Assembly: GCA_040954595.2 (NCBI GenBank)
Contig: CM082590.2
Coordinates: forward strand, 7,006,001 to 7,070,000
Direction: 5' to 3'
From: Balanoglossus misakiensis
Lineage: Eukaryota; Animalia; Hemichordata
DNA length: 64,000 nt
Shown here: positions 18,801 through 58,498 of the stretch, piece after piece
Position numbering within the stretch: the first letter of the stretch is position 1
Layout: every line of letters starts with the position of its first letter
Position numbers and translations under genes: made by a program
Notes under the pieces: generated by a model
The model's database searches: none
What the model was told of the DNA's origin: nothing
What the model saw: only the letters and a program-made list of their open reading frames with translations

Positions 18801-19600
18801 CCTCAAATATTCTGGCAAAGGGGGACATATCCCCCCTCTTGATGGCATCCTGAATGAAACACTGTACTCCAGGTGTTTGTGTATGTCTGTGTGTGTGGGA
18901 GGGGGGGGGGGGTGCATGAAAATGACTATGTATTTTGTGAATAACACTAGATGTACCAGCTACAGTACAATACACCTACCTTCAGGAATATCAGCTGGGA
19001 TCAGTTGGATGTTCTCTTCCTCTTTCAGAATACCTGCGTACTTCTCAATTAAATCTGTAGTCCCATGGTATTCACTACTGCCCTGGTTTTTTACCAGTTC
19101 GATGAAAACACTATAGCCATACCAGGCTGCCATCTCACTGCCCTGGAGATGAATGTAATAATGTTTGTTAACCCTAATGCTACTTTGTGTCATACCTGTT
19201 TGAAGTGTCAGTCAAGACCCTTAAAATATGTATGTGCCATTTTTTTCTTCTTTAACATATTTGACTGTCTTGACATGGCTCTCATACGTACTTTAATAGA
19301 CACATTTGGCAGTCTGAGCCCCCTGTAAAATGTACCAAATCGAACTGGTTTGGTTTGGTTTGAGGGTCTTGTAAGAATACCGTATACTGTACCACGTAAG
19401 TAAAAGACATCACCTACATCTGATTTTAATCAGATTGCTAGACTGCCTACAGTACAGGGTCACACACACCAGTAGGTGAAAAGCTTTATATGTACAATGT
19501 CTTTGACAATGTATGGCTAAATCGCAAGTAATTTAATATCACCTACCTTTTGAAGTAGTGAAGCCTTCAGTTTTGCCTCAGCCATACGTCTTGTTGCCAT
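15846..19600 (-). CDS. C2H2 zinc-finger protein (about 844 aa, 11 fingers, Q/P/T-rich C-terminus) with a MADS-box-like N-terminal segment
   Basis: Coding exons 19600-19547, 19142-18980 and 18163-15846 join in frame. Eleven CxxC-x12-Hx3-4H fingers with TGEK/TDEKPF-type linkers. Probable non-coding first exon near 22065-22160 (gtgaat donor, ETS-like CCGGAA motifs). Confidence 0.9.
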
Positions 19601-20388: not shown

Positions 20389-21620
20389 CAGTGTTGCAGC
20401 CAGGAATTTTATAACAGGGGACACTGTGTCCCCGCACTATTTATTTTTGGGGACATTTTGCATATTTTGGGGACAACATAAACCATGGACATACATGTAT
20501 GTCCATGCATAAACGTACACATACATACACAATGACATACCACATTAAATTGTATAATTTGATGTTTTTAATAAAACACTCAGACTCCTTGGTCTGTGTC
20601 ACAATGACCATATACTTTAACCTGCATTTTGTACAAATTGTACAAATCACGTGTTCACAACAGTCAAGATCTGATCACTATTGTTCTGATAATTAAAGTC
20701 ACTGCCGATTACTGTTTATGCGTCTTTGTTTTACTTTTCTGATTTTGATTACATTCAAGATCTTTTAAATCTGCTTCATTTCTAAATTTAGAGTTCTAAC
20801 CAAAATATCAGAAAGATGAATAATCCCCCCTTTTTATACAAATAAGGATGAAAAACATACTTGTTGTTGACAAGAATTCTGGCTTTATTCCAAATAACCT
20901 GCTCAGCTGGCGGGGTGGAGGAAAAATGACTAATTTAAATTCTTTCAAGTCCTTTATTATTTTAGGAGTAAATTTGAGAAAACTTGTTCCCCATTAAAAA
21001 AAATCAATAGGGTATTTCTAAAAGCTAGGGAATTCATTCCAAGATCAACTGTTGTCTGGCTAGGGGTCCTAAAGCATGTAATAAGAATACTCTCAACTCT
21101 GTCTTTTTGGAGTCTTATCCAAGAAATTAGCAGTTGAATCTACATTAAAAGTTCAGTGGGAGGATTTTCAACAAAACTGAGACTGCTGGTACTCATGGAC
21201 AGAGTTGGTTTCAGAGAAGCAATTGGAGTCACGGTAGTTCACTGCCTGCACAGCTCAGTCCGATATATAGGCGTGATATCGCAATGTATTACTATTACAA
21301 TTCCCAAGAGGGTGGCTGCGCGTACGTAAACTGTATCAAATTCAACAATAAACCACAGTCCCTCGAGGGACTCAAGTTTGCTACAAGTTTGCTATGAAGA
21401 TGTTATCAGTATCGATTACAGGTCGTAAGGTCATAAACTGTGACAAGTGAATCTCTTTGTACGCGTACACCCATCAGTTATCAGGAAACAATGTATGTTA
21501 GCGCCGGCTATTTTTTACACTCAGAGTGCGCCCGTGGTGACCCGCAGTATGCCAGAAAGTGCGCCCGTGGCTTCAGTTTTGGGGACATTGTCGCAAGGGC
21601 GCACGCTGGCTGCAACACTG
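20389..21620. mobile_element. 1.2-kb non-autonomous DNA transposon with 15-bp TIR CAGTGTTGCAGCCAG
   Basis: Perfect 15-bp inverted termini and subterminal TTTTGGGGACA motifs. No intact ORF and no clean TSD seen. Confidence 0.6.
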
Positions 21621-23424
21621 TGTAACATGTATGCCATCTCAGAGTGGCCATTACCCCGGAATGATGTCAACATATCGTTATCCAGGGACGACGCGACGTT
21701 GGTTGCCAACGACAGTCTACATGTATATGCGCGGGGGGGGGGGGGGGCTTCAGGTAGTTACCAGACGATACCTCGCAGTAAGCTATCTCTGAGTCCAAGT
21801 TAGTCTACAACCATGCAAGCAAAAATTGAAGAAAAACAGAGTGCCTCCCAGTTGTAACAGACGCATGCATGAAACGCCCCCTTATTTCTAACATTGCTAA
21901 CAGTAACAGACCGAAAACCACCCGACCCCAAATGTAGGTAACAAAAATGACAACTACAGCAGGGAAAATACTAGAATGTTTACAAGGGCTTACCAGCTAT
22001 AAAAAATGTAACTTTTCCTCATACAAGTCTTCGGTTGAAGTCAACAGCTACAGAAGATATTCACCTCTGGGTCGCCACTTCCGCCGGAAACCCTGTTAAT
22101 GTTGGTCCGGTCATTTGTTTCCTCCAACGGATGGGTTTCATCGCATAGTGGCGTTTCCGGTTGGAGTAATTTATTTTAACTAGCGCTATATTATAGCGGT
22201 AATTGAAAAAATTGATTCAAGTCTGGCTATAAATTCATTTGTCAGCAATAACAGTGTCCATTACCCATGTACAGGCTTTATAGGGAAACTATAGAATAAA
22301 AATTCAATAAAGCTGTCCAGGGTCAAAAAAACAAACTGGAGTTGATAGATGGGAGAAAATTACTGGAAAAAAAGCCAAAGTTAACATAATTGGGGCTTTA
22401 AGTTTATTAGCAATCAGTCGAGGTGTATTGTGTGATTGCGACTGCAGTGATAACTGACCAAAAAACGGTAGCCATGACAACAATCACATATTCTTCGATA
22501 TCAAATGACAACGCTCTCAAGCGCAGTTACGTTAGCATTCAAATTTCCAGCTGACGGGCAACTTCAGCAATGTGGTGCAGACAAAGACTGTGCAGACGAA
22601 ATGCCATGAGGCTTTATGAGGCACCATGCCTGTTACATGTTGCGTGTCTGGCGGTTTTAAAGTATATTAACATACTCGGAAAAAAACTTGGTATAAAATT
22701 GCTTTATTACGTACATAAGCTTATTTATACATCTGCGCTGTCAAACAACCTTTGACATTATAACTACAAGTTAAATTGTAAATTTGGACGGGAAAAAGTT
22801 TGGATATTTGTCATTGTAATATAGTAACAGTGCAAAATCAATGTTAAGAACACAGTTAATCCTTTGTATGAACTAGAAAATAAATGACTATACATGATTG
22901 TGTTTAGTTTTTGCATTTAGATATGTTTGTAATTAAACAGCTCAAATTTTCAAATTCTCTAAAGGGTTTGCATACAAAAACATGAGAGTTGAACGTATTA
23001 ATATACTTGTTGAGTTTCAGAAAAGAATCATTTTATTTTTTAAGTTTCTTAGTACTGTTAAAATTACCATAGTCCATATATAACAAAAACAGGCCGTTTA
23101 AAACTATATGACAACCGACTAATGATTGCAGATAAAATGGCATTCACACGACGACGCTTTGTCCAGCAAAGAAAGGCTTCGTTGATGTACCAGTGATGTT
23201 TCTGAAGGAAAATAACAGGGGTTAATTGATATCAGGATTGTTGAAGATTAAATCTTGGATTATATTAAAACGGAATTGGAGAGCAGTTTTAGTTTAGGTA
23301 TACACATACTATATTTTCCATTTTCTTGTAATATCGCAATCGTATATATAACTTCAAATTCATACATACTCATATAGATAGATGCACACACACAACACAT
23401 ACGGTATATACATACATACATACA

Positions 23425-23456
<32 letters not shown>

Positions 23457-23557
23457 CATACATACATACATACATACATACATACATACATACGCGACAA
23501 TTAAAGGGTTTCATTTTGTATGATAACACTTATAGTTACTTACATTTGTTGATATCT

Positions 23558-24905
23558 CTAATCTACCTTCAAGGCGCCGACAAGCATCATGGTCAGGGTC
23601 AAAGTCACTCCAGCTGTAATTGTACCTATTAAGAAGATAATGGCAAGAAATCAATCAGAAATATTGAATTGTGCTGTGGAAGGTATTATCTATCTCTACA
23701 AAAGAACGGCACTGGGGAAAAAACCAACCGCATTTTTGAATGACATTTCGAAATAGCCCCACATTGTCTCAAATTTGCATTTCAAAATGGCCGCCAACCA
23801 CTGTGTTAAACTCTGAGCTGCAGGGAGAAAAATTAAAGTAGTAGTGATTTTTTTATTTCAGTAAAACTTACCACAGCCATTATCGGAGTTGTCATTTTCA
23901 TCATCAAATACGGTAGTTACATCAGGAACATCTGTATATTCACCTGAAAGGGTTGCAATGATTGTAAAAGTTTAGACGATATGTACAATAGTACAATGCA
24001 GTATTAGTAAACTACAGTACAGTACAGTACACTACACTACGTACAGTACAGAGCAAGTAAAGTATAGCTTGAATTGGTTCTGTTACCTGACCCTTCATCT
24101 GATGATGCGGTCGTTGCTGTTGAGAGAGAGAAAGTTAGAGCGAATGAGAACACAACTTTAACACAATTGTAATGATTTTTAACATAGGGATGTTACAACA
24201 CAACGAGACATGACACGGTATGTACACTAACTCTCGGCTTTCACATTATAGGCCTACCGGTATGCCACTGGCCGAGGCCTTGACTTAGTGCATTTGGGGT
24301 CAGAATGCATCTCAACAAACCAGTCTTAAACTATCTCTACCTCATATAATTCTGCTCAAGTCAACTTTAGATTATCCTACCGTGAAATTGAGTCTAAAAG
24401 TTGGTGGCCGTCGTGCAAAAGTTTGAATGAGAAGGCAGAATTGTCTCAAATTTTAAATTCAAAATGGCCGCCTCGAACAACGCTAGTCTAGCTATTAGTA
24501 GTTCTACAGTCTGTATTTCACTACGCACAAGAAAACACCAACTGAATCAAGGCGATACTCACTTGCTTCCGACTGCGATGCGAGCAGCAACACACAGAGG
24601 GCGAGGAAAAGAATAGCTGTCCTAAATTGGAGAAAAAATTATGAAAAACAGAGATGATTAGAAAACATCTCTCTGTTATCATTTTCTTGGTGAATTTTGT
24701 TTCGTACGAAAAGTTTCTCTATGTGGTTGGACTTCTTGAAGTGAAGATACTAGCCTGACACCAGCAATGATCTCACTGTTACATTAGCCGCAAGCCCTGA
24801 CAAACCCAGCGTGGGTCTCCAAATGATCTTAGATGATATGCGAGGGATTTTAACAGATTGTTGGGGCTAACGAAATAACTAGATGGTGTAGGGTACTTAC
24901 TTCAT
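23558..24905 (-). CDS. Small secreted/GPI-anchored acidic peptide, paralog B (77 aa), micro-exon gene
   Basis: Exons 24905-24901 (ATG AA|gtaagt), 24621-24563, 24116-24087, 23943-23872 and 23625-23558 (TAG), all GT-AG and phase-compatible. Product: MKTAILFLALCVLLLASQSEA-TTTASSDEGSGEYTDVPDVTTVFDDENDNSDNGCG-TITAGVTLTLTMMLVGALKVD. TATATA at 24965-24960; donor 14 nt after the stop; probable 3'-UTR exon from 23201 with AATAAA at 23037-23032. Confidence 0.82.
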
Positions 24906-25265
24906 TGCGAACGTCGACCAGTGGTTGTATTAAGGCGTATTCGTTAAAACTGAGTTCTGTATATAGTGATGCGGCAGTCGATGATAGTCACATGCTTGTT
25001 ACCAACAACAAATATATTGTGTATAAGATCAAGTTCATGCATGACATGTACCATTGAATAAAAAGTTGCCAAAAGAAAAACAGCAGGCATCCTTAAGAGC
25101 AGAATGACAATGGCCTCGACCCCATAAATGTCATGGTGGCCCACTTATTCTAAACGCAGCACTCTTCTTTGTCACTGTGATGTCTCGGGGGTGTTCCATC
25201 GGACACATCCAACGCTACCTAGTCTTATTGACTGGTTCATGGAACTAGAACTTAAGCCATCGAAG

Positions 25266-25459
25266 TTAAAGGTATACGGTCACCCATTGAAAATTAGCTA
25301 TAGTTACCATGGCAAAATGAGATCTAGCCAATCACTGATTTTCAGTGGGTGGCACACGCAAAAAAAAAGAGCGCCACCATATGTTCTTTAGAACGCCCAA
25401 ATACGCCATTTCAGCCATATATGGGCATATGTAAATTGGAGGTGACCGTATACCTTTAA
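25266..25459. mobile_element. About 190-bp MITE family TTAA|AGGTATACGGTCACC...GGTGACCGTATACCT|TTAA (Kolobok-like termini)
   Basis: TIRs plus TTAA flanks. Copies at about 19757-19955, 35016-35208, 37728-37924, 39915-40105 and 46803-46986; degenerate at about 29895-30060. Confidence 0.85.
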
Positions 25460-26389
25460 TGGTTTATCATGTTTTGCGTTTTCTCAGAATCAGCTATGAG
25501 TGCACCCCTTGTTGTGTACGTGAAAAAATACAATGACTGTTGACCGAATCTGCGAGGTTGCTGTTCCAGAAACACAAATTCTGTTTGAATTGTATTTTAT
25601 GAGTTGTTGTAAACTCCGTCAAAAGTCAGAATTTGTACAAAGATATTTTAAATGACAATAGCAGACATGGGTTATAATAGGATTAGAGAAGGTGGCTATC
25701 GAAGATCAAGGATAAATAGAACAATAGAAAAACAAGGGTTCATTTTGCAAAAGAAGCTTTTCATTCAGAACACTTCATTGTTGAAAAATTCATCCAAGGT
25801 CAGAATTTGTACTCAGATATTTTGGATGACAATGGTTGACAGGAGTCTACGTGAAACCATCAAAAGTGCAGATGACGTTTAAACACAGCGGGAACAGGAT
25901 AGGAGATGATGGGGTTTGGTTGTAAACAGTACCACCTGTAGCCTTGACCAAAGTCGAACAATGTAGAATAAATACAGTGCATTAAGTGCAAGCTTGAAGT
26001 TCCAGTTCAGATTGATTACTCTTAATTATGATAAATTCTACACATCAGAAATACATGTTTCAAGAGTACAGGGAAAACAGAAAAAATAGTAAATCTGGCC
26101 TATCTGGTCCGTTTCCTTCCAGAATTACAATTTTCCTGATCAAAATCTCTTCATGGGACATTTTCAAACATTGTCTTTTATGTTGGTTCGTACAACACGT
26201 GAAAGATTGCTGTTTCATTGAACGCACAACCACACGCTTACATAGAGCAGACAGACAGGCAGGTACAGACAGACAGCGAGACAGCCATGGAGACGGACAT
26301 ACAGACAGACAGATAACAGACAGGCAGAGAGAAAAAAAGAATCATGGTTACAAAAACAGATAGGCTGGATCACCCGAATAAGTTAGAAG

Positions 26390-26593
26390 TACTGTAAAAC
26401 ACTTTATTTTCGCGAGTTAAATTTTCGCGATATCGAGAGAGGCCACTGTTTCGCGAGTTTCGCATTCTCTTATTTCATTCACTGCATCGTTATCCTCAAA
26501 AACAATTTACGCGAATTTTTATTTTCACGCTATTTTGGCTCTAGCATATTTGGCGAAAATTAATTGCTCACGAAAATAAAGTGTTTTACAGTA
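26390..26593. mobile_element. About 205-bp MITE family TA|CTGTAAAACAC...GTGTTTTACAG|TA (Tc1/mariner-like TA target)
   Basis: TIRs with TA flanks and internal TTTTCGCG repeats. Near-identical copies at about 30167-30372, 35609-35821, 39042-39254, 45595-45808 and 55946-56157. Confidence 0.85.
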
Positions 26594-27630
26594 ATTAAAC
26601 ATGCACACACTTTTCAGTTTCTTTTCCTTTCATAGACAGACAGACAGACAGACACACAGACAGGCTGGACCATGCAAATAACATAAAACAAGAAAACCAC
26701 ACATCTGTTTCAGTTTCATTCATATTTAATGTACAACTATGCAACTGTAAAGTTAACACGTCTTCCGTACAAGCGAAAACAACACCGACAACTAAAGAAG
26801 TCGGTAATTTTTCGCTGAACGTTACAATTTCGAGATTGAACTAACGTGTACTTTTAACAGCATGGTGCGAGTCTGTTTGCAAATGTTTTCCAACACTGAG
26901 TACCTCGCACAGGGTATCCGCAATTGCACAGACTATCGCCGCTTGTGTCGACATGCATTCGTCAAATTTACAGTCGGTATTAAAGCGTCGGCATCTCGAT
27001 TTCAGGACGCCACAGTTTCAACTTTCAGTAAAACCCGAGCCTATACATCCAACCATGCTGAATCTCAGGTGCAGAGTCATACGACAAAATGGCTTCCAAA
27101 AAACCGGAATAAACCGGTTCCCCCACTTGACGTCATCCATAGCACCGTCATAAATTCAAAATGGCTTTCATGTAAACTTCGTGTAAATGTGCTGCGCATG
27201 CGTAAGTGGCGTAGGATACCCGTTTTGATCTAGCTCCTAGAAAAATTACACTGGAGCAGCAAAGGAGGGCGTGTACTAAAAAAACTGTCCTGAAAATGTC
27301 TGAAAATATTCGCTTCCAAATATGATGAATTGTCTATATTGACTGGAGTCAATACACCCTGCCACCCCTGTTTGTTTGTAAATGAGTCCAACCCATCCTC
27401 TGCGAACAGATAAATGGGTCGATGATGACCAGTTGATCTGCTTGGACACGTGTACGATGGAAGCGCCCTCAATCGCCGCAACAGAGCACTGGCGAGAAAG
27501 AGAGACAAAAGAAACATTTAGTTACAATTGTTGTTTTCTGTGCACTTTTTGTGTTGGGTTTCCTGGAATGGGGACATACACATAAACACATACATAGATA
27601 CACACATAGATACATACATAGATAGATACA

Positions 27631-27965
27631 TACAGTGGAACACCGATTATCCGAACGCTTTGGTACGGTCCCGGGTACGGTCCCCGAACATTTAATTAGC
27701 CATGCCAAGCACCTGTTTTCTCAGCGGTCTGTGACATTTCCGCAGGAAAACTGACATTTCAGACAGTTTTCTTTGTTCAGTTCTATTTGTTTATGTTGTA
27801 AAGGGCAGCGGAACGTGTGAAGAACGTCTTTATCGTTGAATATTTCAATCATGGTTTGGCCTATTTCCTTTGTTCAGACGTGCCAAAATCAATTATCCGA
27901 ACAATCAATTATCCAAACAAAATCTAACCCGCCCAACAGGTTCGGATAATCGGTGTTCCACTGTA
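27631..27965. mobile_element. pogo/Tigger-like MITE TA|CAGTGGAACACCGATTATCCGAAC...|TA inserted in a (TACA)n tract
   Basis: TIR of about 24 bp with TA flanks. Related shorter element at 41164-41325 (CAGTAAAACTCCAATTATCCGAA). Confidence 0.75.
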
Positions 27966-28212
27966 CATACATAAACACGTAGATACACATACATACGTAT
28001 ACATACATACGTATACATACATACATACATACATACATACATACATACATACATACATACATACATACATGTACATACATACATACATACATACATACAT
28101 ACATACATACATACATACATACATACATACATACATACATACATACATACATACATACATACATACATACATACATACATACATACATACATACATACAT
28201 ACATACATACAT
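27965..28212. repeat. (TACA)n microsatellite; others at about 23408-23492 and 28880-29085
   Basis: Direct reading of the sequence. Confidence 0.95.
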
Positions 28213-28289
28213 ACTATATCAAGTGAAACTTGTTGTTTTAGAGTAGAGGAAGCTGCAAACAACTACATGTAACTTACTTCTTATCTAGT

Positions 28290-31200
28290 CTAGTAAGCCC
28301 TCAGGGCAGCAAAAACCATGGCCAGTGTCATGGTCAAGCATGCTGAAACAGCACTGACACCTACAAAAGAAAATAATGGAAAATTCTCATTAAACAACTG
28401 CATGGGGAAGATACTCTGCTGGGATTACCCATTCGTATTCCGGTCAAATATATAGAATTTACATGGTCAGTTGCAAAGACAATCAGTCACAAAACTTTAC
28501 AGCACGCACAGCACAGAACAATCGTCAAAACACACGGAACAAAGTCCAGTCTGTGACAGGAAGTTATATGAATTTCCGGTTAAGAAAGCCCAGGAAGTGA
28601 CGTCACACATTTCGAAAATAGTAAGTGTACCCTGCCCCACATGTTACACCCACCCCTCGTCAAAGTCACATGACCAAGGGTCATCACCATTAGTTAATCA
28701 CAAGACATTTCTTCAACATGGTGTGAGTTTAAAACATGCGTCCGTACCTAATTCAGACCAGTGTATGTATTAAAAAATCACTTACCACTTGCGGTTGTAG
28801 GTTCCGCTGTTTAAGAAATAATAAATAAATAAATAAATACATAGATAAAAAAATACATTATTTCATAAATACATTCATAAATACATACATACATACATGC
28901 ATGCATACATGCATGCATGCATACATACATACATGCATGCATGCATGCATACATACATACATACATACATACATGCATGCATGCATGCATACATACATAC
29001 ATACATACATACATACATACATACATGCATACATACATACATACATACATACATACCATGCATACATATATGCATACATACATAAATCAATGAATCAATC
29101 AATCAAAGAATCAATAGATAAATAAAATTATCTTTCCCTGTATTTTTCTCTTTTCAAATATGACTTTCAGTCAAATATTGACCAATATGAATGATTTAAA
29201 GTAAAATTGTCTATGTTTAACTTTTCCGGCAATGATACACTGTATGTATTTCAGAAATTATTCTTTTTAATTCCAGTAGGTCGAGCAGTTATCCCTATGT
29301 AGTTGTGGTTAAATTTGATCAAGTGTTTAGTCGACAAAGAAATAATTTCGGTGGTAATAGGATTTCGGTAAGATTGAAAGAGCGCCACCAGTCGATGACG
29401 TGTTTTTTCTTACCATAGCCGGTAGGCATCATATCCTCGGTTGTTGGTGGAAGGGTGGCTGCAACAGGAAAGAACAATGCATTTTATTGTATAGATCAGT
29501 GAATATTTAAAGGGACAAAGTCTCTCTCCAGCTGCCCCTTTTTCATTAATTATGTTTGATACAAGACACTGGTTATGTTAATGTAAATGTGGATATATAG
29601 TGAATCAATGATCAACCACACAAAACTTCCATCCCACTTGTATGATATGAGAGTAAAAACTCGCCCAAAATGAATAAATGGTAAAGAACGATTATTCATT
29701 CTGGCGAGTTTTTTCACTCTCCTGTCTATAAGAGGGATGGAAGTAATGTGTGTGGTTGAACGTTCATTCACTATATATCCACATGTAGAACAACAAACGG
29801 TGTCTTGTATCAAATATAATTAATGGAAAAAGGGGCAGTGAGAGAGAGACTTTGTCCCTTTAAAATAAATTGATATTGGGAGTACGCGATATTGGTGATG
29901 GCCACCTATGCAAATTTAACCTTTGTTACCATGGGGAAATGAAATGTAGCAAATCACTGATTTTCAGTGAATGACACACACATAAAAAAGTGCCACCATA
30001 TGTTCATTCGAAAATTTAGACACCTTTTGACATATGTGGACATATGCAAACTACGGTGTCCGTTTACGTTTTGCTTTATAAATTCTCGTATTTAAAACTC
30101 AATTAGCTGTCAAGCCCTTGTTTACAATATCAGTAAATGCCCGAGATAAAATGTCATATTTGAAGGTACTGTAAAACATTTTATTTTCGCGAGCAATTCG
30201 CCAAATACGCGAGAGCCAAAATAGCGTGAAAATAAAAAGTCACGTAAATTGTTTTTGAAGATAACGATGCAGTGAATGAAATAAGAGAACGCGAAAATTA
30301 ATACTCGCGAAACAGTGGCCTCTCTCGATATCGCAAAAAATTTAACTCGCGAAAATAAAGTCTTTCACAGTATACAGCCACCACTAATTAACATATGCAA
30401 ATTTCTGTCAAGATGTATACATGTACTTACTTGCATTTGCCAAGAGCATGAATGCGAACAGGGAGATGAGGAAAACTGCTGACCTGAAAATGAGAAAAAA
30501 AAGGTAAAATTAGACAAACATTTTAGAAAAAATCCCTATTATTGACTATGAAATGTTAGCTGGTTTGGGTGGAACGGTATACAATAGTGTAGTTTTATTA
30601 CTACAGAAAATGTTCATGATTCAAGCGAATGGCTATCGACGGTCCACTTCCATCCCATAATATGCACTCTCTTGAAATGGGTTGTACAGGGCACTAGTCT
30701 AAATTGTATGGACAACATTGGTTGAGTAGGTGGTGAGCACTTTGTTATGCAAAAAAACAAAAAAAAACTAGAAAATTTGCAAGATTTGTCCTTCTAATTC
30801 ACGACGATTAAATTAACACAATTACAAATGGATCCTTATTATAATCATATCATTTTCACCTTGCTGGGGAAAAATAAAGTTCAACAAACAGTATTTTTGA
30901 GTGGATATCTTGACCAGGCGCAAGCTAGGTGAAGTTTGGCAGACGTAGGGGAAAACCATTTGATTTCTGGGGATTGGATATTTGGAGAAAAAAGGTTGGC
31001 TGTTGGCAGATGGTGACGAGGAAAATTATTTTCGCAATGCCTTAAAGAAAGAGGGACTGGTTATCGAATAAAAAACTGCTATAACATGGGCTGAAACTTT
31101 GTTAACTGATTTAACCAGATCTTGTACCATCCCAGAAATCAAATGGTTTATCTCTTTGGGTAAAATCTCTAACCTACGCCCTCCCTCTCATGGAATCTGC

Positions 31201-31585
31201 ATCTAACCTCTCTGGGACAACCCTTATTCCTATCAAGACCTAGATCTTGTCGTTTGTGACATGACACTTGGACCAAGGGAATGAAAACGGAAGCTAGACT
31301 CCAACAGTCGTTGTGAATGCTCTAAAAATTGACAGCCTCGGCGCGCTTGGCCCTCAGGGGTTACATAAGGGAGAGAGTGGTGTTCTCATCGTGACATTGC
31401 CGTGAGAAATCGACGTCCACCACGTGCCCCGAAAATCTGACTTCAATCACCGAATTCTCCTTCCGCAGTATATAAATAATCCCTGGCCGGTTTGCCGCGT
31501 GCGTACCAGGCTCTAGTGTTGTCACTTTTATGCAGTGTTAGCGCCAATAAAATGAAAAAGTAAAAAATACATATACTTACTTCAT
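28290..31585 (-). CDS. Small secreted/GPI-anchored Thr/Pro-rich peptide, paralog A (64 aa), micro-exon gene
   Basis: Exons 31585-31581 (ATG AA|gtaagt), 30483-30431, 29458-29414, 28806-28786 and 28360-28290 (TAG), all GT-AG and phase-compatible. Product: MKSAVFLISLFAFMLLANA-TTLPPTTEDMMPTGYAEPTTASG-VSAVSACLTMTLAMVFAALRAY. Donor 12 nt after the stop; probable 3'-UTR exon from 27236 with ATTAAA at 26730-26725. Confidence 0.82.
29507..29863. mobile_element. About 350-bp palindromic MITE family TTAA|AGGGACAAAGTCTCTCT...AGAGACTTTGTCCCT|TTAA (Kolobok-like termini)
   Basis: Long TIRs and TTAA target duplication. Other full or partial copies at about 4433, 7240, 9309, 9769, 12233, 14298, 32328, 36564-36907, 43656-44003, 54443-54710 and 60952. 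Confidence 0.85.
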
Positions 31586-31674
31586 GGTGTCTTTTGGATG
31601 GTTAGTTACTGGCTTCTTCGTGTGTTTCTTTATGGGTGGCTAAATGAAATGTGGCTACACGCTTGTGAAGCGCG

Positions 31675-31776
31675 CTCTTATAGCGTCCCACGCTGTCACA
31701 TGTTCGCTTCCTGCCTTCCTATTGGTCCCACCTGTTGCTATGGGCGTTCCTGAGAAACAGCGACGGCCGTGATTGG
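31675..31776 (-). promoter_or_regulatory. Pol II core promoter of paralog A: TATA-like box plus two CCAAT boxes
   Basis: Minus-strand TATAAGAG at 31682-31675, about 90 nt upstream of the ATG. CCAAT at 31725-31721 and 31776-31772. Confidence 0.55.
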
Positions 31777-33159
31777 TCGGGTGCTCATTTTGAAGGACAG
31801 GTGCTGTGGTCTCTTCGTCATGGTTTTTTCTCTGTTGCTGAAAACAGGGGAAAACACTGTCCCTGTTTCTTGGCGACCGCTTCGATTGTTTGGCATTGGT
31901 CTGCAAAAACACAGACTGACCTCGCGCCGGGGATCTCGATTATTCCCAACATCGTCACGCTGAAATTAGTCACTAGGTTCTGCTTAAAAAAAATTCACAA
32001 GCGTTTCTTCGTTCTGTTTCAGTGGAATCCCAAACTAGCTTTTAGAAGTGGGGTGAAGTTACGTTTGTTCAGTATAGAATCGTGGCAATTTCAAATGCAG
32101 GGACACTTGACATATTTGAGGCTAAGTCAGTGAAATGAGATCACGAACTCTCAAGGTCAACGTTACAATAAGGCTGGGAGCCATGGCAACACCATGCCTT
32201 TGTTTGACCACTCAAATCCACGACATGTTCAATGACCGCACTCTGATAGTGATACATTCACCATCAGGCAGAAAGTGCAATTCAAGAGTATGAAAACAAG
32301 AAGCATAGTCATACCAGTACAATGTCATTAAAGGGACAAAGTCTCTCTCTCGCTACCCGTTTTCCATTAATTATGATTGATACAAGACACCGTTAATATT
32401 AACGTGTATGTGGATATATTGCTCCCATGAAAGTTCCATTCCTTATCGACAGGAACAGCGACTACCACAGAGTCTAATATTGAATCAACGTTAGACCACA
32501 CACACCTTCCATCCCACTTGTAGACATGAAAGTGAAAATAACTTGCCAAAATGAATAATCGTTTTCTACCATTTATTGATTTTAGGCGAGTTTTTACTCT
32601 CATATCCTACAAACGGGATGGAAGTTGTGTGTGGTTGAACGTTGATTCACTATATACACATACATAATCGGTGTCTTGTATCAAACATAATTAATGGAAA
32701 TGGGCAGCGAGAGAGAAACTTTGTCCCTTCAATATTTACAGGAGTCTGTCAAACAGAACAGATCTTAAGAGCAACTCCCCACACACGATTTCCCTCGTAG
32801 ATGTCAAACAAATTCAATGGACGACATTTCCTTACACACAGGTAAATGACCTCAATTCAAGAAACGACCCCCTCATGGATGATTGAATATGTATAATAGC
32901 CAAATATATAATACATGTACTGGTTTTCCCACGCAACAAAAGTTAGATTAAAAGTCTGTGTCAAACGACATCAATTATCTTTCGAACGGCATGAAGCTTA
33001 AAGTGAACGATGTCAAAATTTGGCAATTTTCTTCTAAAACTACTAGAGGAATTTCAGCCCTGAAATGTGGAGGTTTTAGACACATATCGTTTAATTAAGA
33101 AACTTGAACAGAACTAATGTTTGCAATGGTATAGTCTGTAAAACTATACAAAGTAATAA

Positions 33160-41421: not shown

Positions 41422-43659
41422 ATGGCTGCAGGAGGTAGTCCTGTGAAACCCAGAGTGTCCACCATGAGGCGGAGAATACAGGAGGACTTCCTGCACTGCG
41501 GGATCTGCTTCGAGGTCTACGAGAACCCCAAATGCTTGCCCTGCCAGCACTCCTTCTGCCAGACGTGTCTGGACAAGCACGTCAAGGCCGGGGCGCGATT
41601 CAAGTGTCCGCTGTGCAACCAGGACTGCGTGGTCCCCGAGGGAGGGATCGCCAAGCTGCAGCCCAGCTACCTGATCAAGCAGCTGCAGGACATCATCATC
41701 CACCGCGACCCGGTCGCCGACACCAAATGCGAGATCTGCCAGATCCACCGCACGCAGGCGGTGTGCGTGGACTGCGTGCTGAACATCTGCGCCGACTGCT
41801 CGAACCACCACAAGATAATACCCACGACCAAGAAGCATCGAATCTTCACTCTAGAAGAGTACGGTTCAGCCAAGGCGAACGATAAGTCCCTAGTGCAACC
41901 GATGGTGTACTGCTCCACGCACAAACAGGACGTGCTGGATCTCTACTGCGAGAAATGCCAGCACCCGGTGTGTATTCGCTGCTCGCAGGACGAACACAGC
42001 ACCCGGGGACACAAATGCGTGAGTCTCACAAGCGTAACCGAGAAACACCAACTGGGTCTGTCCGAGGTACTGGCCCGCGTGGCAACCAAGAAGACCACAA
42101 ATTCCTCGCGCAAGAGCAACTCCGAGCAGATGATGGAGCTGATAGAACGCGAATACCGCGACGAGTGCTCGGCGATCGACGCGCACGCGCAGGAAACCAT
42201 GGCCCGGGTGAACGCAGAGAAGGACAGACTCCTACAGACCCTGACAACCAAGTTCGAAGAGAACAAAGACATGCTGCGGCAAGAAATCAGCCTCTTCGAC
42301 GAGAGCGGTAAGGTCATCGACGAGGTGATCACGAGTATAAACAATCTGAAACAATACGGCAATGCTGCTCAGGTGGTCTCCTCGTACCCTATGGTTCAAC
42401 AGTACACATCTCAGTTGTTCTCCGCAGCCATTCCTTACTTCACAGACGTCTGCAGCTTGCCTAAGTTCAGCCCCAATGACCGCACGACAAAGATCGACAT
42501 CGGCTGTATAACGTATGACACAATAGCTGCTGATAGTCTCGCCTTGAGATGCAGGCCCCACAGAAAGATTAAAGTCGGGGAAGATATCCATTTAGAAATT
42601 ACGGCCGGTGATCCGAAAGTCGTTCGGAAAAAAACCATGATTAGTCGGGAGATTGTGGGAACTCTAACCGACTCTGACGGCAGTGCAAAAGTCTTGGATA
42701 TCATAGAAAGTCAGGAAGACGCAGGCAATGAGACCCATGTGTTGAAACTCCAGTGCCTAACCACTGGTAAACACAAGGTATTCGTCAAGTTAAATAAACG
42801 CAGCATCGAAGGTTCCCCGTACACTGTCAGTGTCTCGCCAGCGTGGCAGAGGGTCGAGGTGATCGGGGGTGAGGGGGACGGGGTCGGGGAGTTCATCCTC
42901 CCTCGCGGCGTCGCCCAGGACAAGAGAGGGAAACTCTTAGTGGTGGATACCGGGAATAAGAGAGTCCAGAAGCTGAATCCGAAGAAAGGCCACAAGAAGA
43001 TTCTCAACCTGGTGGGGTTGAATCGGCCCATACTGCCGCACGGCATAGCCGTTTCTTCCCTCAATGAGTACTTCATTACAGACGCCAAGAATAACAGGGT
43101 AGTTGTTTGCGACAGGAAGGGCAAGGTGATCGGTTGGTTCGGGGAGGCCAAACTTCGCGTTCCGTGGGGAATCGCTATCAACGAATCACTCGGCTACGTG
43201 TATATCGTTAACAACGGCATGCACTGTGTTGCCGTATTCGGCAAAGAAGGTGGAAAATACAGCTTCCGGAAATCCTTCAGTACCGAAGGAAACGGTCTCG
43301 GCCAGTTAAGCAGCCCGCTGTGCGTTGCCATAAACAGCAAAGATCAGGTGCTCGTGTCAGACCGGGATAATCACCGAATCCAAGTGTTCGAGGCGGAAGG
43401 CAAGGCCCTGTTCGCGTTCGGAAGGAAAGGGGATAGTGAGGGGTGCTTCATTTGTCCGGAGGGGGTGGCCGTGGACAGGGAGGATAACATCTATGTCTGC
43501 GACTGCTATAATAACAGAGTGCAGAAGTTTGATGACAGAGGGAGGTTCGTCTGTTGTATCAGTACCTCCTCCCAGCTCCGCGACCCTCGGGGTGTCATGG
43601 TAGACGACTCGAACAATGTCATTGTCACTGATGCTGACAAAGTGCATATATTTGCTTAA
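41422..43659 (+). CDS. TRIM-NHL E3 ligase (TRIM2/TRIM3/TRIM71-like): RING, B-box1, B-box2, coiled coil, filamin, NHL repeats (745 aa, single coding exon)
   Basis: RING CGIC..CQHSFCQTC..CPLC; B-box CEIC..CVDC..CADC; B-box CSTH..CEKC..CIRC..H; filamin end GKHKVFVKLNKRSIEGSPY; NHL repeats F.LPRGVA, LSSPLCVAINSKDQVLVSDRDNHRIQVF, PEGVAVDREDNIYVCDCYNNRVQKF. An acceptor at about 41345 implies upstream UTR exon(s). Confidence 0.93.
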   Translation: MAAGGSPVKPRVSTMRRRIQEDFLHCGICFEVYENPKCLPCQHSFCQTCLDKHVKAGARFKCPLCNQDCVVPEGGIAKLQPSYLIKQLQDIIIHRDPVADTKCEICQIHRTQAVCVDCVLNICADCSNHHKIIPTTKKHRIFTLEEYGSAKANDKSLVQPMVYCSTHKQDVLDLYCEKCQHPVCIRCSQDEHSTRGHKCVSLTSVTEKHQLGLSEVLARVATKKTTNSSRKSNSEQMMELIEREYRDECSAIDAHAQETMARVNAEKDRLLQTLTTKFEENKDMLRQEISLFDESGKVIDEVITSINNLKQYGNAAQVVSSYPMVQQYTSQLFSAAIPYFTDVCSLPKFSPNDRTTKIDIGCITYDTIAADSLALRCRPHRKIKVGEDIHLEITAGDPKVVRKKTMISREIVGTLTDSDGSAKVLDIIESQEDAGNETHVLKLQCLTTGKHKVFVKLNKRSIEGSPYTVSVSPAWQRVEVIGGEGDGVGEFILPRGVAQDKRGKLLVVDTGNKRVQKLNPKKGHKKILNLVGLNRPILPHGIAVSSLNEYFITDAKNNRVVVCDRKGKVIGWFGEAKLRVPWGIAINESLGYVYIVNNGMHCVAVFGKEGGKYSFRKSFSTEGNGLGQLSSPLCVAINSKDQVLVSDRDNHRIQVFEAEGKALFAFGRKGDSEGCFICPEGVAVDREDNIYVCDCYNNRVQKFDDRGRFVCCISTSSQLRDPRGVMVDDSNNVIVTDADKVHIFA

Positions 43660-47038: not shown

Positions 47039-50000
47039 CTAGACATGGAGTTTGAAATATTTCTTTCTGATCTGTTCAGGAATTTCAATGACATGCATGT
47101 GGTATTTTGCTATCATATCTACTAGGCCATTCCTCTCAGTTTCCGACATTGCGTCCAAAATCTCCTCGTTTGCGAGCAATTTCATTTCTTTGACTACGAA
47201 GGCTGGACCCTGCGATCTGTCGGATCCGTATATATTCACTGTAGGCCTGTCACTGAAAAGCGGTTGGGGGACTATTTTCTGCGGCGGAGGAATCACCACA
47301 AGTTTTAGACTCGGCACTCTCTGGCGCATTGATTCTTGAATTTGCTTCACTGTCTCGACAACTCGCGCATAATCATCTTCCGGGGGCGCGATTGGGGGGA
47401 GGCTGAATTCTCGCAAAGTCTCGTTCGATCTCATCGAATCACGGAAGCATTCGATGGCCTTGAGATCAATTTGTATGGGTTTGTTATTAAGCGTGTCCCA
47501 GACCACAGTTTCAAGAGCTGCCCCATCTTTGCTGTGAACCAGACCGGACAGACAATTCAAAACATCGCTGCTCATCGGGCCGTTGTATCGCATAAACAGT
47601 CTATTCAAAGCCTTGTGGTGACTCACCGCACGCAAGACACTCACAACCAACTCGCCTATGTCATCGGAAAAGAAAATCGTGAGAGACCTAAGGGTGCTAT
47701 TTCTGTGCAGAACATCGCAGATGCCACCGCTTTGCTGCCCTACGGTGACACTGAACTCCTCAAGTGAGTCGTTAATTTCGAGAGCCTGGAAGAGGGGCGT
47801 GACATCCGGACAACACGCGGTCGGGATCGGGCCAACACCGAGAGACCAGAGTTTGAAATATGCCAATGTTTTGTTTTCCTCTAGAGCCTCCCTAAGTGGA
47901 GCGAAATCGATGTCCGCACCGGGAGGGATACCTAACAACAGGAAAGACAGCTTTTTCAAACTCTTGCTGTCTCTTAAAACTTCCCCTAAGCTCTCAATCA
48001 GTGGCTGTTCTGGGATTGTGAGCACCGAGCGAACTTGTAGGTCTAACTCTTCAAGTGGCGCGACTTTGAACAACTCCAGGGGAAGGTTCGGGAACGGGAC
48101 GACTGGCGAGGACAAATTCAAAACGAGGCTGAACTTGCCTCGTTCTGAGTTACCGTTCAGGCCTTCAGTTACCTTGGCGACCGACGCGCACATGATTTGA
48201 TCGACTTTCTCGTCGGAATCCGTATTTTTCATTCTGAAAAAGTTCAGATTTACCTCTTTAATGCTGGTGCAGCGTTCGATTGCTGATGAAACGGCGTTTG
48301 TTTGCAACGGGTCAAGAAATATATCGGTCTCCAACGATTCAATCGCGGTATCTCCAGACAACTGAGCGAGCACGTCCGCGCACAACTCCGGGTCGAACAT
48401 CCTGCCCATGATCAATTTACGAACGCCGCCCCGATTTTCAGAATGGGATTCGGGGCTGCTCTGGAGAACGGAGCCCAAACCCTGCAGAGATTGCTGGTCG
48501 AGGTGGAGATTCACAGGCGCGTTCTCAATCTGACGCTGTTCATACTCAGAATGAGTGAAGCTGTAACCGCGATATGACGTAAGATTCAATGTCGGCGGTA
48601 AATGGCTGGCCACAATGCGTGCTAGGGAGTCCCCATTTCCTGTCTCGTGGAGACATGCTAGGGAGCTTAGTAGGAGCCGCTCAAATCTAGCCCTGTCTGA
48701 TTTATGCTTGTCCAGGTTTTCTGCATACTCGCGAAGAATTGGACTCGCGTCGGCTTTTAACAAACCGCTAGCAAACGAGCAGACGGCGAAATGTTCGTTT
48801 TCGAGCAACTCGCGCATGTCTGTCGCCGCGTCCCCGCCATTTTGGATTTTCGAAGTGATGTAGAAGCCCGCGAAGTATTCTTGGAACGTTTTATGTAGGA
48901 AGTTGCACGTTTTCGATCTTTTTATTCTCGAGACTCCGACGTCTTTCGTTAGAAACCCTGTAAGAAGCAACTCGTCGGGTGTGATTTCTGACTGCTGAAA
49001 TATCAGCCTGTTTTCGCGCAATCCCCGCCACGCATATTCGCCGAGTTTGCATAATTTCTCCGTGATGTCGTCTGGAACTTGGTCGCCATCTTTGTTGACG
49101 ACCTCTGATCTGTTCGCGACGTAGGATTTCGTGATCGCCAACACGAGATCGGCGTATAAGTCAGTAACGGTGCTGGGCAGATTTCCGGCGTTATCCTCCC
49201 ACAAAACACAGAGCAAGATCGTGTTCAGAGGAGTCTGACAAATCTCTGACAGAACACGCTTTGATCGGACCTCCTGAATCAAACTTTCTGCTGTCCCCTT
49301 TCTATCTTTGAAGTAATTACAAATGAAATTGTCCCTGTCTTTTGGCGAGTATCCAGTAATTCTCAAATTCGGGTGGCAAAATTTCAAGATGGCGTCAAAT
49401 TCGTGCGGGCGGGAGGTCACAACGACGGTACTCTCGTACATAGTTTGGCCCTGAATCAATCTATTAAGGTCACTGTCTAGCAATATTTTAGGATCAACTT
49501 CGTCTAATCCGTCTACGATAAACAAGAGATTTTTCGATTCAGTCAAGAGTTCAGCCCAAAGCTCGTCTTGTTTGAATTTATTTTTGTACTCCTCGGGGAA
49601 TTGATCAAAGATGGCGTCTGCGATACTTCCGCTGAAATCTCTCATCTCTAACAGAAAAGCGGCGCTAAACTGTGGCAATTTCCCACAGGCCCATTCGTAT
49701 AGGATTTTCTGACTGAAGGTACTCTTCCCAATGCCCGGGGAGCCCTCAACCCTCACCCGTCTCGGCATCCGGGCGCTTTTCGCGATCGTCCCGAACAAGT
49801 CAGACACCTTCAGCGGGAAAGCGTCCGACAAGCGCCCTCTACGGTCCTTCTCCGTAAACTGCAGGTTGGTGTAGACGTCGTTGAGGGGCAGGAAGAAGTC
49901 GTGGCACCATGGCAACGGCTGCACTTCGGAAAGTCGCGATCTGTAGAATGTCCGCAGGTAGTCAGACACTTCTTTGATGATGAAAGATGTAGGTATTGGC

Positions 50001-51229
50001 TGTTCTGTGGAAGGAATGATGAGATGGAAATCATGATAATAATCAATTCTTACTTAATTCTTTACACGTGATCTGGCCATGTGACCCATGGTGATGTCAA
50101 ATCCAGGTGACGGACAAGCAATATTTCAGCATCCAGTAAAAGTTTTTCAGAGTATTTTTTTTACTTTAAGTTTAAAGCCACCTGACGAGGCTAGACACGT
50201 AACATGTATCAGGTATGGTGCCTTATCAGCCTCATGGAGTTTCGTTGGCACAGTCTAAGTCAGGACCACGTTGCTGAAGTTGCCTGTCATCTGGAAATTT
50301 GAATGCGAACGTAACTGCCACCTGAGCGCGTCTGACGTCATTTGATATCAAAGAATAGAAATGATACCATAGCAGACCCATTTTGTGGTTGTACAATAGA
50401 AAAATAACATATCTGTTTTGGATACATGTACAACTGTCCCTAAATACAATCGATTGATCAATCCTTGAAAGATCACCATTGTCACTGAGCAATTTGTATT
50501 ATGATAATTATCTGATATAATCCAGATATTTCCTTTGTGATGTGTTCTCCAGGAGAGTTAAAGGGGAAATCCGGCCTAGCTGATTTCTACATAATGTGGT
50601 AGCTTTGAGGTCACTCTTTCAGAAAAAAACATATTCGCCATGTATAAGTCGAGCGAATATGTTTTATTATGAAAGAGTGACCTCAAAGTTACCAAATTAT
50701 GTAGAAATCAGCTAGGCCGGATTTCCCCTTTAAGTTTAAGTTTAAGTACTAGTACTAGTATTCAAAACGGAGTTGAGAGTTGAAGTCTTCTATTTCAAGT
50801 TCCAAGATTCAAAATTCATCCCAGAAATACCACTCACCACTTAAGTTTCCCTCTGCAAGAAAACGGTGAAACTTCTTCACCAAGTCAACCCTGGGAAGCG
50901 CTTCCAGGAGGCTGATGAAAGTGTCATAGTTGCCAGGCAACGCCACACCCATCTGATGCAGCTTGAAGAAGATGTCTCCAGCAGACATAGACTCTGTCGC
51001 GTCCCCGGGCACTAATATCCCACACGACAGACAATGGCGCTTCAAGCTGTTTAATTCGTCTGAATAAAAGTGAAAAAGGGCACACAATTATTAAGAGTCA
51101 GAACGTAACATACAAGGGAAGAGGGGGGGGGGAGTTAAGGGGGGGGGGAGGTTGGGTCAGAGAGAGCAAACGAGCGAGAGACAGACAGACAGAGCAAGAG
51201 AGAGATAGAGACAGAGAGAGAGAGAGAGT

Positions 51230-56954: not shown

Positions 56955-57574
56955 ATTGATTTTGTTATGGTCGTTTCATTAGACCCTCTAAGTATTCGTG
57001 TAAAACGCTATTTTGAATCCCCTAGGTTATCCAATATTATCTACAATAATCTGACCCTTGACCCCTGACCGTCTACACTGTGTGACGCAGAAAAAAAACT
57101 ATAGTGACCGTTATTCAAGCGTTTTTGTGATTTCTCTTATTTATTTTGGCTTTTATACGTCTTGGTATTTGTATATCAGCTTATTTCAAAGTTACCACAT
57201 ATACAGCGTACTGCATGTCCTAGTATGTAAATGAGGGACTTATGATAGCACGCCCCCAACGACTAGCTTTTGAAGTGAGCTGCACTAAGGGAGCCTTCAG
57301 TATTTATAGGGGGGGGGGGTGGCCAGGGGGAATCAAAGGAGGGGGGGGGGGGTCACTTTTTACAAACCAATCTTTTGGGGGAGGGTCACTTTTTACAAAC
57401 CTATCTTTGGGGTTGGGTCACTGTTTACGGCTGAAAATGCCTGATCACAAAATCACCAATCAGTATTCTCCCCAGGAAAGACAAGCTGAAAGAAAAACAT
57501 GTAAACACAACAAGACAACAGTTTCAGACCACTGGCCTTTAACTGGAGATTCTACTCAATTACACATCAGTGCG

Positions 57575-57604
57575 ATCATCATCATCATCATCATCATCAT
57601 CGTT

Positions 57605-57635
<31 letters not shown>

Positions 57636-57646
57636 CCGCCATCATC

Positions 57647-57678
<32 letters not shown>

Positions 57679-57783
57679 CATCACCGCCATCATCATCACC
57701 ATCATCATCATCATCATCACCATCATCATCATCACAACCACCAACACCACCACCCACGCCGCCACCACCACCAAAACCACCAA
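57575..57783. repeat. (ATC)n/(ACC)n trinucleotide tract
   Basis: Direct reading; explains the poly-D, poly-M, poly-S and poly-I ORFs. Confidence 0.95.
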
Positions 57784-58002
57784 GTAGACTTTTTACAGCC
57801 AAATAAATGCAGAAGTAGACATTTTCACTTGCATGAGAATTAGCATCACTTTAAAAATTAATAAAATGAGAAATCTATATTTCGTATTTAATTCCGTATC
57901 ATAGAAGCCGAGTTGTGTTGAAGATTTGTATATTGGTTTCAGCAGAGCGACCGTCACCACATTTTCATGATTTCACTTTCTGTAATGAACTCTGCTGTAT
58001 GT

Positions 58003-58211: not shown

Positions 58212-58498
58212 GTGGTCCTTTCATTTTACGGTCATTATCGATAAGATCAATGAAAGGACATTTTGATGAAACGGCGTCTAGTATATTGGGTTTCTGACGG
58301 TATTTAACCTAGTATCTCAGGTAGGGCGCAGAGTGTACTAGTTCTACTGTATGGTGACAACATAAATCTTGATAAAAATCAGCGATAAGGGCCGGGCTGT
58401 TCTACATTGTTCTTTTAAATGACGTATCGAAACCATCAAGCGATCACGTCATGTTCGTTGTGTGCCAGACAGACGACGAGTGGTGATTAGTTTCTGCG

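What the first reader, a model, noticed from the sequence alone, without database searches (positions are those of the whole stretch)
23000..31780. Hidden tandem pair of micro-exon genes encoding tiny GPI-anchored CD24/CD52-style surface peptides
Seen: two minus-strand genes invisible to ORF calling share the same architecture: a TATA-like box; first coding exon ATG-AA only; a phase 2-to-1 signal-peptide exon; two symmetric phase 1-1 micro-exons (45 and 21 nt in A; 30 and 72 nt in B); an exon with a hydrophobic tail and TAG; and an intron 12-14 nt after the stop. The tails are similar (CLTMTLAMVFAALRAY versus TLTLTMMLVGALKVD) and follow small-residue omega-like sites (ASG; NGCG). After processing only about 22 aa (A) and about 32-35 aa (B) would remain, both Thr/Ser-rich. 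Established: signal peptide, short O-glycosylated core and GPI signal is the design of CD24 and CD52. Inference: an undescribed invertebrate family of glycan-display surface micropeptides, located next to an immune gene cluster. Ten phase-compatible exons in two parallel series are unlikely to arise by chance.
Basis: partly seen in the sequence, partly recalled or inferred. Interest (0 to 1): 0.8.

Follow-up and report, generated by a model that had tools for sequence, protein, structure and literature searches.

The report
Two tiny acorn-worm surface glycopeptide genes
A likely acorn-worm genome carries two related genes built from very short exons, one of them seen spliced, that are predicted to make 22- and 32-residue sugar-coated peptides tethered to the cell surface by a lipid, like human CD24/CD52 in design but with no detected kinship, and the second may be an unusually small proteoglycan.

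Summary
Both minus-strand genes have the stated exons, GT-AG introns and phases. A splice-plus-hydropathy search finds only these two in the window, and nothing as strong in 2,193 simulated strands. One contig of run X3 skips gene A's intron 4 and its post-stop intron exactly, so A is very likely transcribed and spliced; B has no such support. A and B are paralogs whose signal and tail exons keep codon position 2 (30 of 36, against 15 and 19), a sign of protein coding. A neighbouring gene is 74% identical to a Ptychodera flava protein. Best reading: GPI-anchored O-glycan scaffolds (0.62); a single-pass protein with a 3-residue tail is the main rival (0.2). CD24/CD52 is an analogy only: the mature cores have no N-glycan site, there are five coding exons, and no family matched. 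The immune link rests on proximity alone. Homolog searches used single exons and had little power.

The parts
31677..31776 (-). Gene A proximal promoter motifs: CCAAT at 31776 and 31725, TATA-like box at 31682
   Evidence: motif scan; function untested
31581..31585 (-). Gene A exon 1, coding part (start codon plus two bases, phase 2)
   Evidence: donor in top 0.94%
30431..30483 (-). Gene A exon 2, signal peptide (53 nt, phase 2 to 1)
   Evidence: best acceptor of the window, donor top 0.56%; paralogous to B exon 2
29414..29458 (-). Gene A exon 3, Thr/Pro-rich core (45 nt, phase 1-1)
   Evidence: acceptor top 0.17%, donor top 0.84%; junction to exon 4 only weakly favoured by a mismatch count
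28786..28806 (-). Gene A exon 4 (21 nt, phase 1-1), ends at the likely anchor site
   Evidence: joined to exon 5 in an X3 contig
28278..28360 (-). Gene A exon 5: hydrophobic tail, stop at 28292-28290, 12 nt of 3' UTR
   Evidence: both ends spliced in the X3 contig; allele differences are one silent change and R62K
26725..27488 (-). Gene A last exon (3' UTR), with a polyadenylation-type hexamer at 26730-26725
   Evidence: X3 contigs cover 26737-27488; loose end equals 27459-27488; 3' end approximate
24960..24965 (-). Gene B TATA-like box
   Evidence: motif scan; untested
24901..24905 (-). Gene B exon 1, coding part (start codon plus two bases, phase 2)
   Evidence: donor top 0.94%
24563..24621 (-). 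Gene B exon 2, signal peptide (59 nt, phase 2 to 1)
   Evidence: DNA likeness to A exon 2, 0 of 3,000 shuffles as high
24087..24116 (-). Gene B exon 3 (30 nt, phase 1-1); ends in the acidic G-S-G site whose last Gly is completed by the next exon
23872..23943 (-). Gene B exon 4, acidic core (72 nt, phase 1-1), ends at the likely anchor site
23544..23625 (-). Gene B exon 5: hydrophobic tail, stop at 23560-23558, 14 nt of 3' UTR
   Evidence: DNA likeness to A exon 5, 0 of 3,000 shuffles as high; allele L64S
23032..23201 (-). Gene B predicted last exon (3' UTR) to the first polyadenylation hexamer
   Evidence: acceptor score 7.0, hexamer at 23037; not seen in RNA

Best explanation
Two duplicated micro-exon genes, at least one of them seen spliced, likely encode precursors whose signal peptide and hydrophobic tail would both be removed, leaving predicted 22- and 32-residue peptides tied to the cell surface by a GPI lipid as scaffolds for sugar chains. 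Steps: (shown) exon chains and open frames of both; splicing of A's last two introns; (strongly inferred) translation, from the codon-position pattern between the paralogs; (predicted) signal cleavage after Ala19 in A and Ala21 in B, and GPI transfer at about Ala40-Gly42 in A and Asn53-Gly54 in B; (predicted) O-GalNAc chains on the Thr/Ser/Pro core of A, and in B possibly a chondroitin or heparan chain on Ser31; (speculative) a job in the glycocalyx or mucus-facing surface as spacer, adhesion ligand or shed decoy, set by the sugars rather than by a fold. The phase 1-1 cassettes could lengthen or shorten the core by skipping without breaking the frame (possible, not observed).
For: Exons and phases; splice-site ranks; null model, 0 of 2,193 strands at the genes' scores; spliced X3 contig with zero depth for that joint in X1 and X2; paralogy of signal and tail exons at DNA level, 0 of 3,000 shuffles each; codon position 2 kept in 30 of 36 aligned codons against 15 and 19, Fisher p 0.0002; candidate omega sites with small residues at omega and omega+2 and 22-24 residues behind them, matching the rule in PMC7125958 (passages); only three residues follow the hydrophobic stretch; rough insertion-energy sums are borderline for A (0.04) and unfavourable for B (1.4) (recalled scale); the second allele of B puts Ser for Leu at the start of the hydrophobic part, which a GPI signal would bear more easily than a membrane span (inference); cores hold no Cys, so no fold is expected.
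Against: No GPI or signal predictor could be run, only rules. The spacer after omega is small and uncharged rather than the roughly 10 hydrophilic residues of the textbook signal, and in A the last 19 uncharged residues could span a membrane. Both paralogs and both alleles of A keep Arg/Lys three from the end, as the positive-inside rule would ask of a membrane span. A's first three junctions are not shown, so an extra exon cannot be fully excluded, though the search found no added exon up to 120 nt. Null thresholds were set knowing the genes. No homolog outside this genome was found, so there is no cross-species test.
Confidence: 0.62

Rival explanations
1. The tail is kept as a single membrane span with a three-residue cytoplasmic end, giving a miniature glycophorin-like type I protein instead of a GPI-anchored one.
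For: A has 19 uncharged residues with a borderline insertion sum; a basic residue follows the hydrophobic stretch in A (both alleles) and B; the spacer is not polar.
Against: B's stretch is Thr/Gly-rich with an unfavourable sum and tolerates L64S; good omega triplets lie 22-24 residues from the end in both genes; a three-residue tail is unusual for a type I protein (general knowledge).
Confidence: 0.2
2. Only A is an active gene and B is a silent or decaying copy; or the transcripts are non-coding and the frames incidental.
For: No junction of B has direct support; one of the four off-frames (A, +2) is also open; the peptides are very short.
Against: B keeps start, five exons in phase, all splice sites, stop and post-stop intron although it has diverged far from A; its other three checked frames carry 5-8 stops where counted; the codon-position pattern needs selection on protein in both copies; no Rfam family in 21500-33000.
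Confidence: 0.1
3. They are true relatives of CD24/CD52 and act as immune 'self' markers together with the nearby NACHT and NHL genes.
For: Same overall design and size range; NHL, NACHT and HEPN-domain genes lie 10-32 kb upstream.
Against: No N-glycan sequon in either mature core while CD52's activity rests on its sialylated N-glycan; five coding exons against two (recalled); no Pfam match at cut-off; the neighbours encode predicted cytoplasmic proteins and the other flank is a zinc-finger and a kinesin gene.
Confidence: 0.04
4. The products are secreted, with the hydrophobic end serving self-assembly in mucus or being cut off by a protease.
For: Acorn worms secrete much mucus (general knowledge); GPI proteins are also shed.
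Against: No dibasic cleavage site or Cys in the cores; the tail is the most conserved part between the paralogs while the core is not alignable, as for a processing signal.
Confidence: 0.04

Closest known systems
CD52 (CAMPATH-1), 12-residue GPI-anchored glycopeptide (PMC6065011, PMC7125958; passages read)
   Same: Precursor mostly made of a signal peptide and a GPI-type signal; tiny unfolded mature part that would carry glycans.
   Different: CD52 is a scaffold for an N-glycan that binds Siglec-10; A and B have no N-glycan sequon in the mature part, are 22 and 32 residues, and come from five coding exons; no sequence match found.
CD24 (PMC10834733, one passage; PMC6065011)
   Same: Small, GPI-anchored, heavily O-glycosylated; about the size of B's core (size recalled).
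   Different: CD24 also has N-glycan sites; gene has two coding exons (recalled); B is strongly acidic with a G-S-G site.
Plant arabinogalactan (AG) peptides, 10-13 residues, often GPI-anchored (PMC7769824; passages read)
   Same: Same convergent design: short Pro/Ala/Ser/Thr core between two cleaved signals; A's core is Thr/Pro-rich.
   Different: Sugars sit on hydroxyproline in plants; no homology implied.
Small invertebrate proteoglycan cores, C. elegans CPG-7/8/9 (7-12 kDa; PMC2063922, PMC8418075; passages read)
   Same: Low-complexity acidic core with Ser-Gly; B matches the nematode motif E/D-G/A-S-G exactly.
   Different: B has a single site, a predicted 3.4 kDa mature core and a membrane anchor; the word GPI does not occur in those papers' main text.
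Glypicans (GPI-anchored heparan sulfate proteoglycans; recalled)
   Same: GPI anchor plus a Ser-Gly site in acidic context near the membrane.
   Different: Glypicans have a large Cys-rich folded domain; B has none.

Membership tests
GPI-anchored proteins (class) | N-terminal signal peptide | tested here: met
   hydrophobic 9-residue windows reach 2.9 (A) and 3.4 (B) after a Lys at position 2, ending in A-x-A or S-x-A; rule-based, no predictor
GPI-anchored proteins (class) | Small omega and omega+2 residues 20-30 residues from the C-terminus | tested here: met
   4 candidate sites in A and 6 in B; best A40/G42 and N53/G54 (rule)
GPI-anchored proteins (class) | About 10 hydrophilic spacer residues then a hydrophobic end with no cytoplasmic tail | tested here: inconclusive
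   spacer small and uncharged rather than polar; three residues including Arg/Lys follow the hydrophobic stretch
GPI-anchored proteins (class) | PI-PLC release or dependence on GPI transamidase | not testable with these tools
   bench test
CD24/CD52 | Mature core of about 12-35 residues rich in Ser/Thr | tested here: met
   22 residues with 8 S/T; 32 residues with 10 S/T
CD24/CD52 | N-glycan sequon in the mature core | tested here: not met
   only sequon is at A's residue 18, inside the predicted signal peptide; none in B; CD52's N-glycan
CD24/CD52 | Two coding exons (recalled, not confirmed in a paper read) | tested here: not met
   five coding exons and a UTR exon in both genes
CD24/CD52 | Sequence homology | tested here: inconclusive
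   7 single-exon frames: no Pfam family at cut-off (that Pfam holds CD24 and CAMPATH-1 models is recalled); exon pieces are short, so power is low
CD24/CD52 | Sialylated glycan that engages Siglec-10 | not testable with these tools
   bench test
Proteoglycan core proteins | Ser-Gly flanked by Gly with acidic residues at -4 to -2; E/D-G/A-S-G | tested here: met
   gene B Ser31 (motif); 517 of 100,000 shuffles of the core give the motif; noticed after the fact. Gene A's only Ser-Gly lacks the acidic context and lies at the anchor site
Proteoglycan core proteins | Chain actually attached | not testable with these tools
   PMC8418075 warns that motifs alone are ambiguous
Ly6/uPAR and glypicans | Cys-rich folded ectodomain (recalled) | tested here: not met
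   0 Cys in either predicted mature core

The most novel reading that the evidence does not exclude
Gene B encodes a GPI-anchored proteoglycan reduced to a 32-residue (3.4 kDa) core with one glycosaminoglycan chain, half the size of the 7 kDa nematode CPG-9 and with no glypican domain, and its paralog A is the O-glycan version of the same chassis: a hemichordate kit of in-frame micro-exon cassettes between a signal exon and an anchor exon that swaps the kind of sugar displayed.
Probability: 0.25. Interest if true: 0.7.

Novelty: new variant of a known kind. Interest (0 to 1): 0.47.

Why it matters
Tiny GPI glycan scaffolds are known from mammals and plants; a hemichordate pair shows the design arising again with a different gene structure and marks a class of 60-80-codon, micro-exon genes that gene callers drop. 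If B carries a glycosaminoglycan it would be a minimal surface proteoglycan, a clean tool for asking what a chain does when the core has no fold. Without that, it is a modest addition: two real but lineage-limited surface glycopeptides with no shown immune role.

Tried and rejected
No whole genome is held. No RNA holder was listed; X3 was labelled 'DNA?' and its RNA nature is my inference from the spliced contig. X3 contigs do not cover B's exons: no evidence either way. Homolog searches could use only single-exon frames with intron flanks and all came up empty: A exon 5 frame, B exon 2 frame, B exon 4 frame against 1.84 billion representatives, A exon 3 frame in metagenome contigs (544 pattern matches, 0 confirmed), Atlas look-ups (best 0.78, below the useful level; none), Pfam (1 of 7 frames with a sub-threshold hit), PDB (one hit at E 0.69). 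These have low power and do not show that relatives are absent; the spliced peptides were never searched. A 20-nt likeness at the start of the two 3' UTRs is not significant (122 of 2,000 shuffles); whole UTRs (53 of 300) and promoters (71 of 300) likewise. The cores of A and B do not align (3,638 of 5,000 shuffles as good) and A exon 4 versus B exon 3 is not significant. No third family member in the window. Intronic RNA genes: none. A genomic retrocopy as source of the spliced contig: rejected because X1 and X2 show zero depth for the joint. A full exon-versus-intron polymorphism count for B was not possible: one search showed 40 of 117 difference rows. In one search the first-printed donor scores for the post-stop introns are off by one place; the list lower down gives 4.2 and 4.0. 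Paper searches (listings only) showed no report of such genes; supplementary files and subscription papers were not examined and could name Ptychodera or Saccoglossus orthologs.
Full report
Setting. The window is animal DNA. The single-exon RING/B-box/filamin/NHL gene at 41422-43656 has one relative at E below 1e-50 among 6,756 candidates, a Ptychodera flava protein, 74% identical over its whole length; P. flava is an enteropneust hemichordate. So the source is likely an acorn worm. Other neighbours are a kinesin (MKLP1 domain, about 8.5 kb), a C2H2 zinc-finger gene (15.8-18.2 kb), a DED/NACHT gene (47-51 kb) and a HEPN-B-box-NHL gene (58.5-61 kb).

The observation. Reading the minus strand and joining by coordinates gives two five-exon frames of 64 (A) and 77 (B) residues, with all eight introns GT-AG and phases 2,1,1,1 in both. 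A further intron begins 12 and 14 nt after the stops, close enough to escape nonsense-mediated decay by the usual 50-nt rule (general knowledge). With a generic, recalled splice matrix the eight coding donors lie in the top 1.72% of 8,070 GT sites and the eight acceptors in the top 3.96% of 7,121 AG sites. A chain search asking for a start codon, three to seven short exons, a signal-like start and a hydrophobic end returned five chains on the real window, all A, B or their exon-skipping forms, with best scores 47.1 and 39.3; 2,193 simulated 64-kb strands gave 35 passing starts with a best score of 28.8. The thresholds were chosen knowing the genes, so this is a check against chance, not a blind test. 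None of the exons lies in the repeats shared within the window.

Splicing of gene A. Three runs of one sample were listed, all labelled 'DNA?'. In X3 one contig of 508 letters and depth 188 lies on 27132-27488 with its letters 1-357, on 28278-28358 with 358-438 and on 28784-28809 with 439-464. The joint skips 425 bases with GT..AG ends on the minus strand, which is intron 4 exactly, and the loose end before 28278 equals 27459-27488, so the 789-nt post-stop intron is also out. X1 and X2 have zero depth for this joint, and X3 has no depth in most intron bins, so X3 most likely is cDNA. X3 contigs reach down to 26737, next to a polyadenylation-type hexamer at 26730, giving a 3' UTR of about 770 nt. 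The last 44 letters of the contig fall in a masked stretch, so the exon 3-4 junction is not shown; the contig's four differences equal the two allelic changes plus the two expected if exon 3 is joined (one if exon 2, none if the intron is kept), but that depends on how the tool counts and is only a hint.

Paralogy and coding. The tail exons and the signal exons of A and B match at DNA level better than all 3,000 shuffles each, while cores, promoters and UTRs do not. Over 36 aligned codons (start and stop left out; one gap placed by me in the tail) identity is 15, 30 and 19 at codon positions 1, 2 and 3 (chi-square p 0.001; signal exon alone, with no gap, 6, 12, 7 of 15). Keeping position 2 keeps hydrophobic character, which points to selection on protein in this frame in both genes. 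The second allele differs in A's tail exon by one silent change and Arg62 to Lys, the residue B has there, and in B's tail by Leu64 to Ser. One allelic contig over B's intron 2 and the first 17 nt of exon 3 has 10 substitutions, all in the intron; the table was cut, so no full rate is given.

What the products would be. Signal cleavage is predicted after Ala19 and Ala21. GPI signals have small residues at omega and omega+2, 20-30 residues in all, about 10 hydrophilic then about 20 hydrophobic (PMC7125958, passages). A and B have such triplets 22-24 residues from the end, which leaves about 22 residues (2.3 kDa; 8 Ser/Thr, 4 Pro) and 32 residues (3.4 kDa; 10 Ser/Thr, 10 Asp/Glu), with no Cys, no basic residue and no N-glycan sequon. 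Against a clean GPI call, the spacer is small and uncharged rather than polar, and a basic residue three from the end is kept in both genes; A's 19 uncharged residues are borderline for a membrane span on a rough recalled scale, B's are not. I put GPI at about 0.62 overall and a short-tailed membrane span at 0.2.

The site in B. B has Asp-Glu-Gly-Ser-Gly-Glu at residues 28-33. Xylosyltransferase acceptors are serines flanked by glycines with acidic residues at -4 to -2 (PMC5992326, passages), and nematode chondroitin sites follow E/D-G/A-S-G (PMC8418075, passages). The motif arises in 517 of 100,000 shuffles of B's core, though I noticed it after the fact, and the same paper warns that motifs alone are ambiguous. 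The Ser-Gly survives skipping of exon 4. The smallest core named in the passages I read is CPG-9 at 7 kDa (PMC2063922); a review of invertebrate chondroitin has no mention of hemichordates or GPI in its main text (PMC11632948, term counts and two passages).

Comparison. [quoted passage not shown] A and B likely work like these, as anchored sugar stands, but fail membership of CD24/CD52 on the N-glycan site and exon count, and no family matched any of seven single-exon frames. All homolog searches were empty but used only 11-24 residues of real exon each, so relatives in annotated hemichordates are not excluded. Six paper searches aimed at such genes (listings only) showed no report of them; four others served for background. 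An unreviewed note from another genome describes a similar design, which suggests that the kind recurs in animals.

Verdict. Real genes, hidden from ORF calling, one shown spliced; a new variant of a known design, with a testable chance that B is a minimal GPI-anchored proteoglycan. The immune reading has no support beyond proximity. Interest 0.47.

Noticed in passing
window 58487-60955 (+) and 61929-63998 (-): Two HEPN_DZIP3 / coiled-coil / filamin / NHL genes face each other tail to tail; the second is similar in its N-terminal part, lacks the B-box stretch by eye and runs to the window's end region.
   Followed up: partly
window 47039-51087 (-): DED-like piece (weak Pfam hit) upstream of a NACHT gene with a long C-terminal part, an NLR-like layout.
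   Followed up: partly
window 41422-43656 (+): Single-exon RING/B-box/filamin/NHL gene, 74% identical to P. flava XP_070546883.1; a handle for finding the syntenic region.
   Followed up: yes
window 25266-25490, 26387-26599, 29499-29870, 29898-30079, 30159-30375, 32323-32739: Several short high-copy elements, some with inverted ends, sit in the introns and spacer; depth up to about 1.5 million in contigs. One lies just behind A's 3' end.
   Followed up: no
window 18980-19600 (-): Two short exon-like stretches upstream of the zinc-finger exon, probably that gene's 5' exons (seen).
   Followed up: no
window 24055-24255: High allelic divergence in gene B's intron 2: 10 substitutions and 16 gap letters in one 183-letter contig.
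   Followed up: partly
window 57505-57850: Long CAT/GAT-type triplet repeat that gives spurious poly-His, poly-Ile and poly-Asp frames.
   Followed up: no
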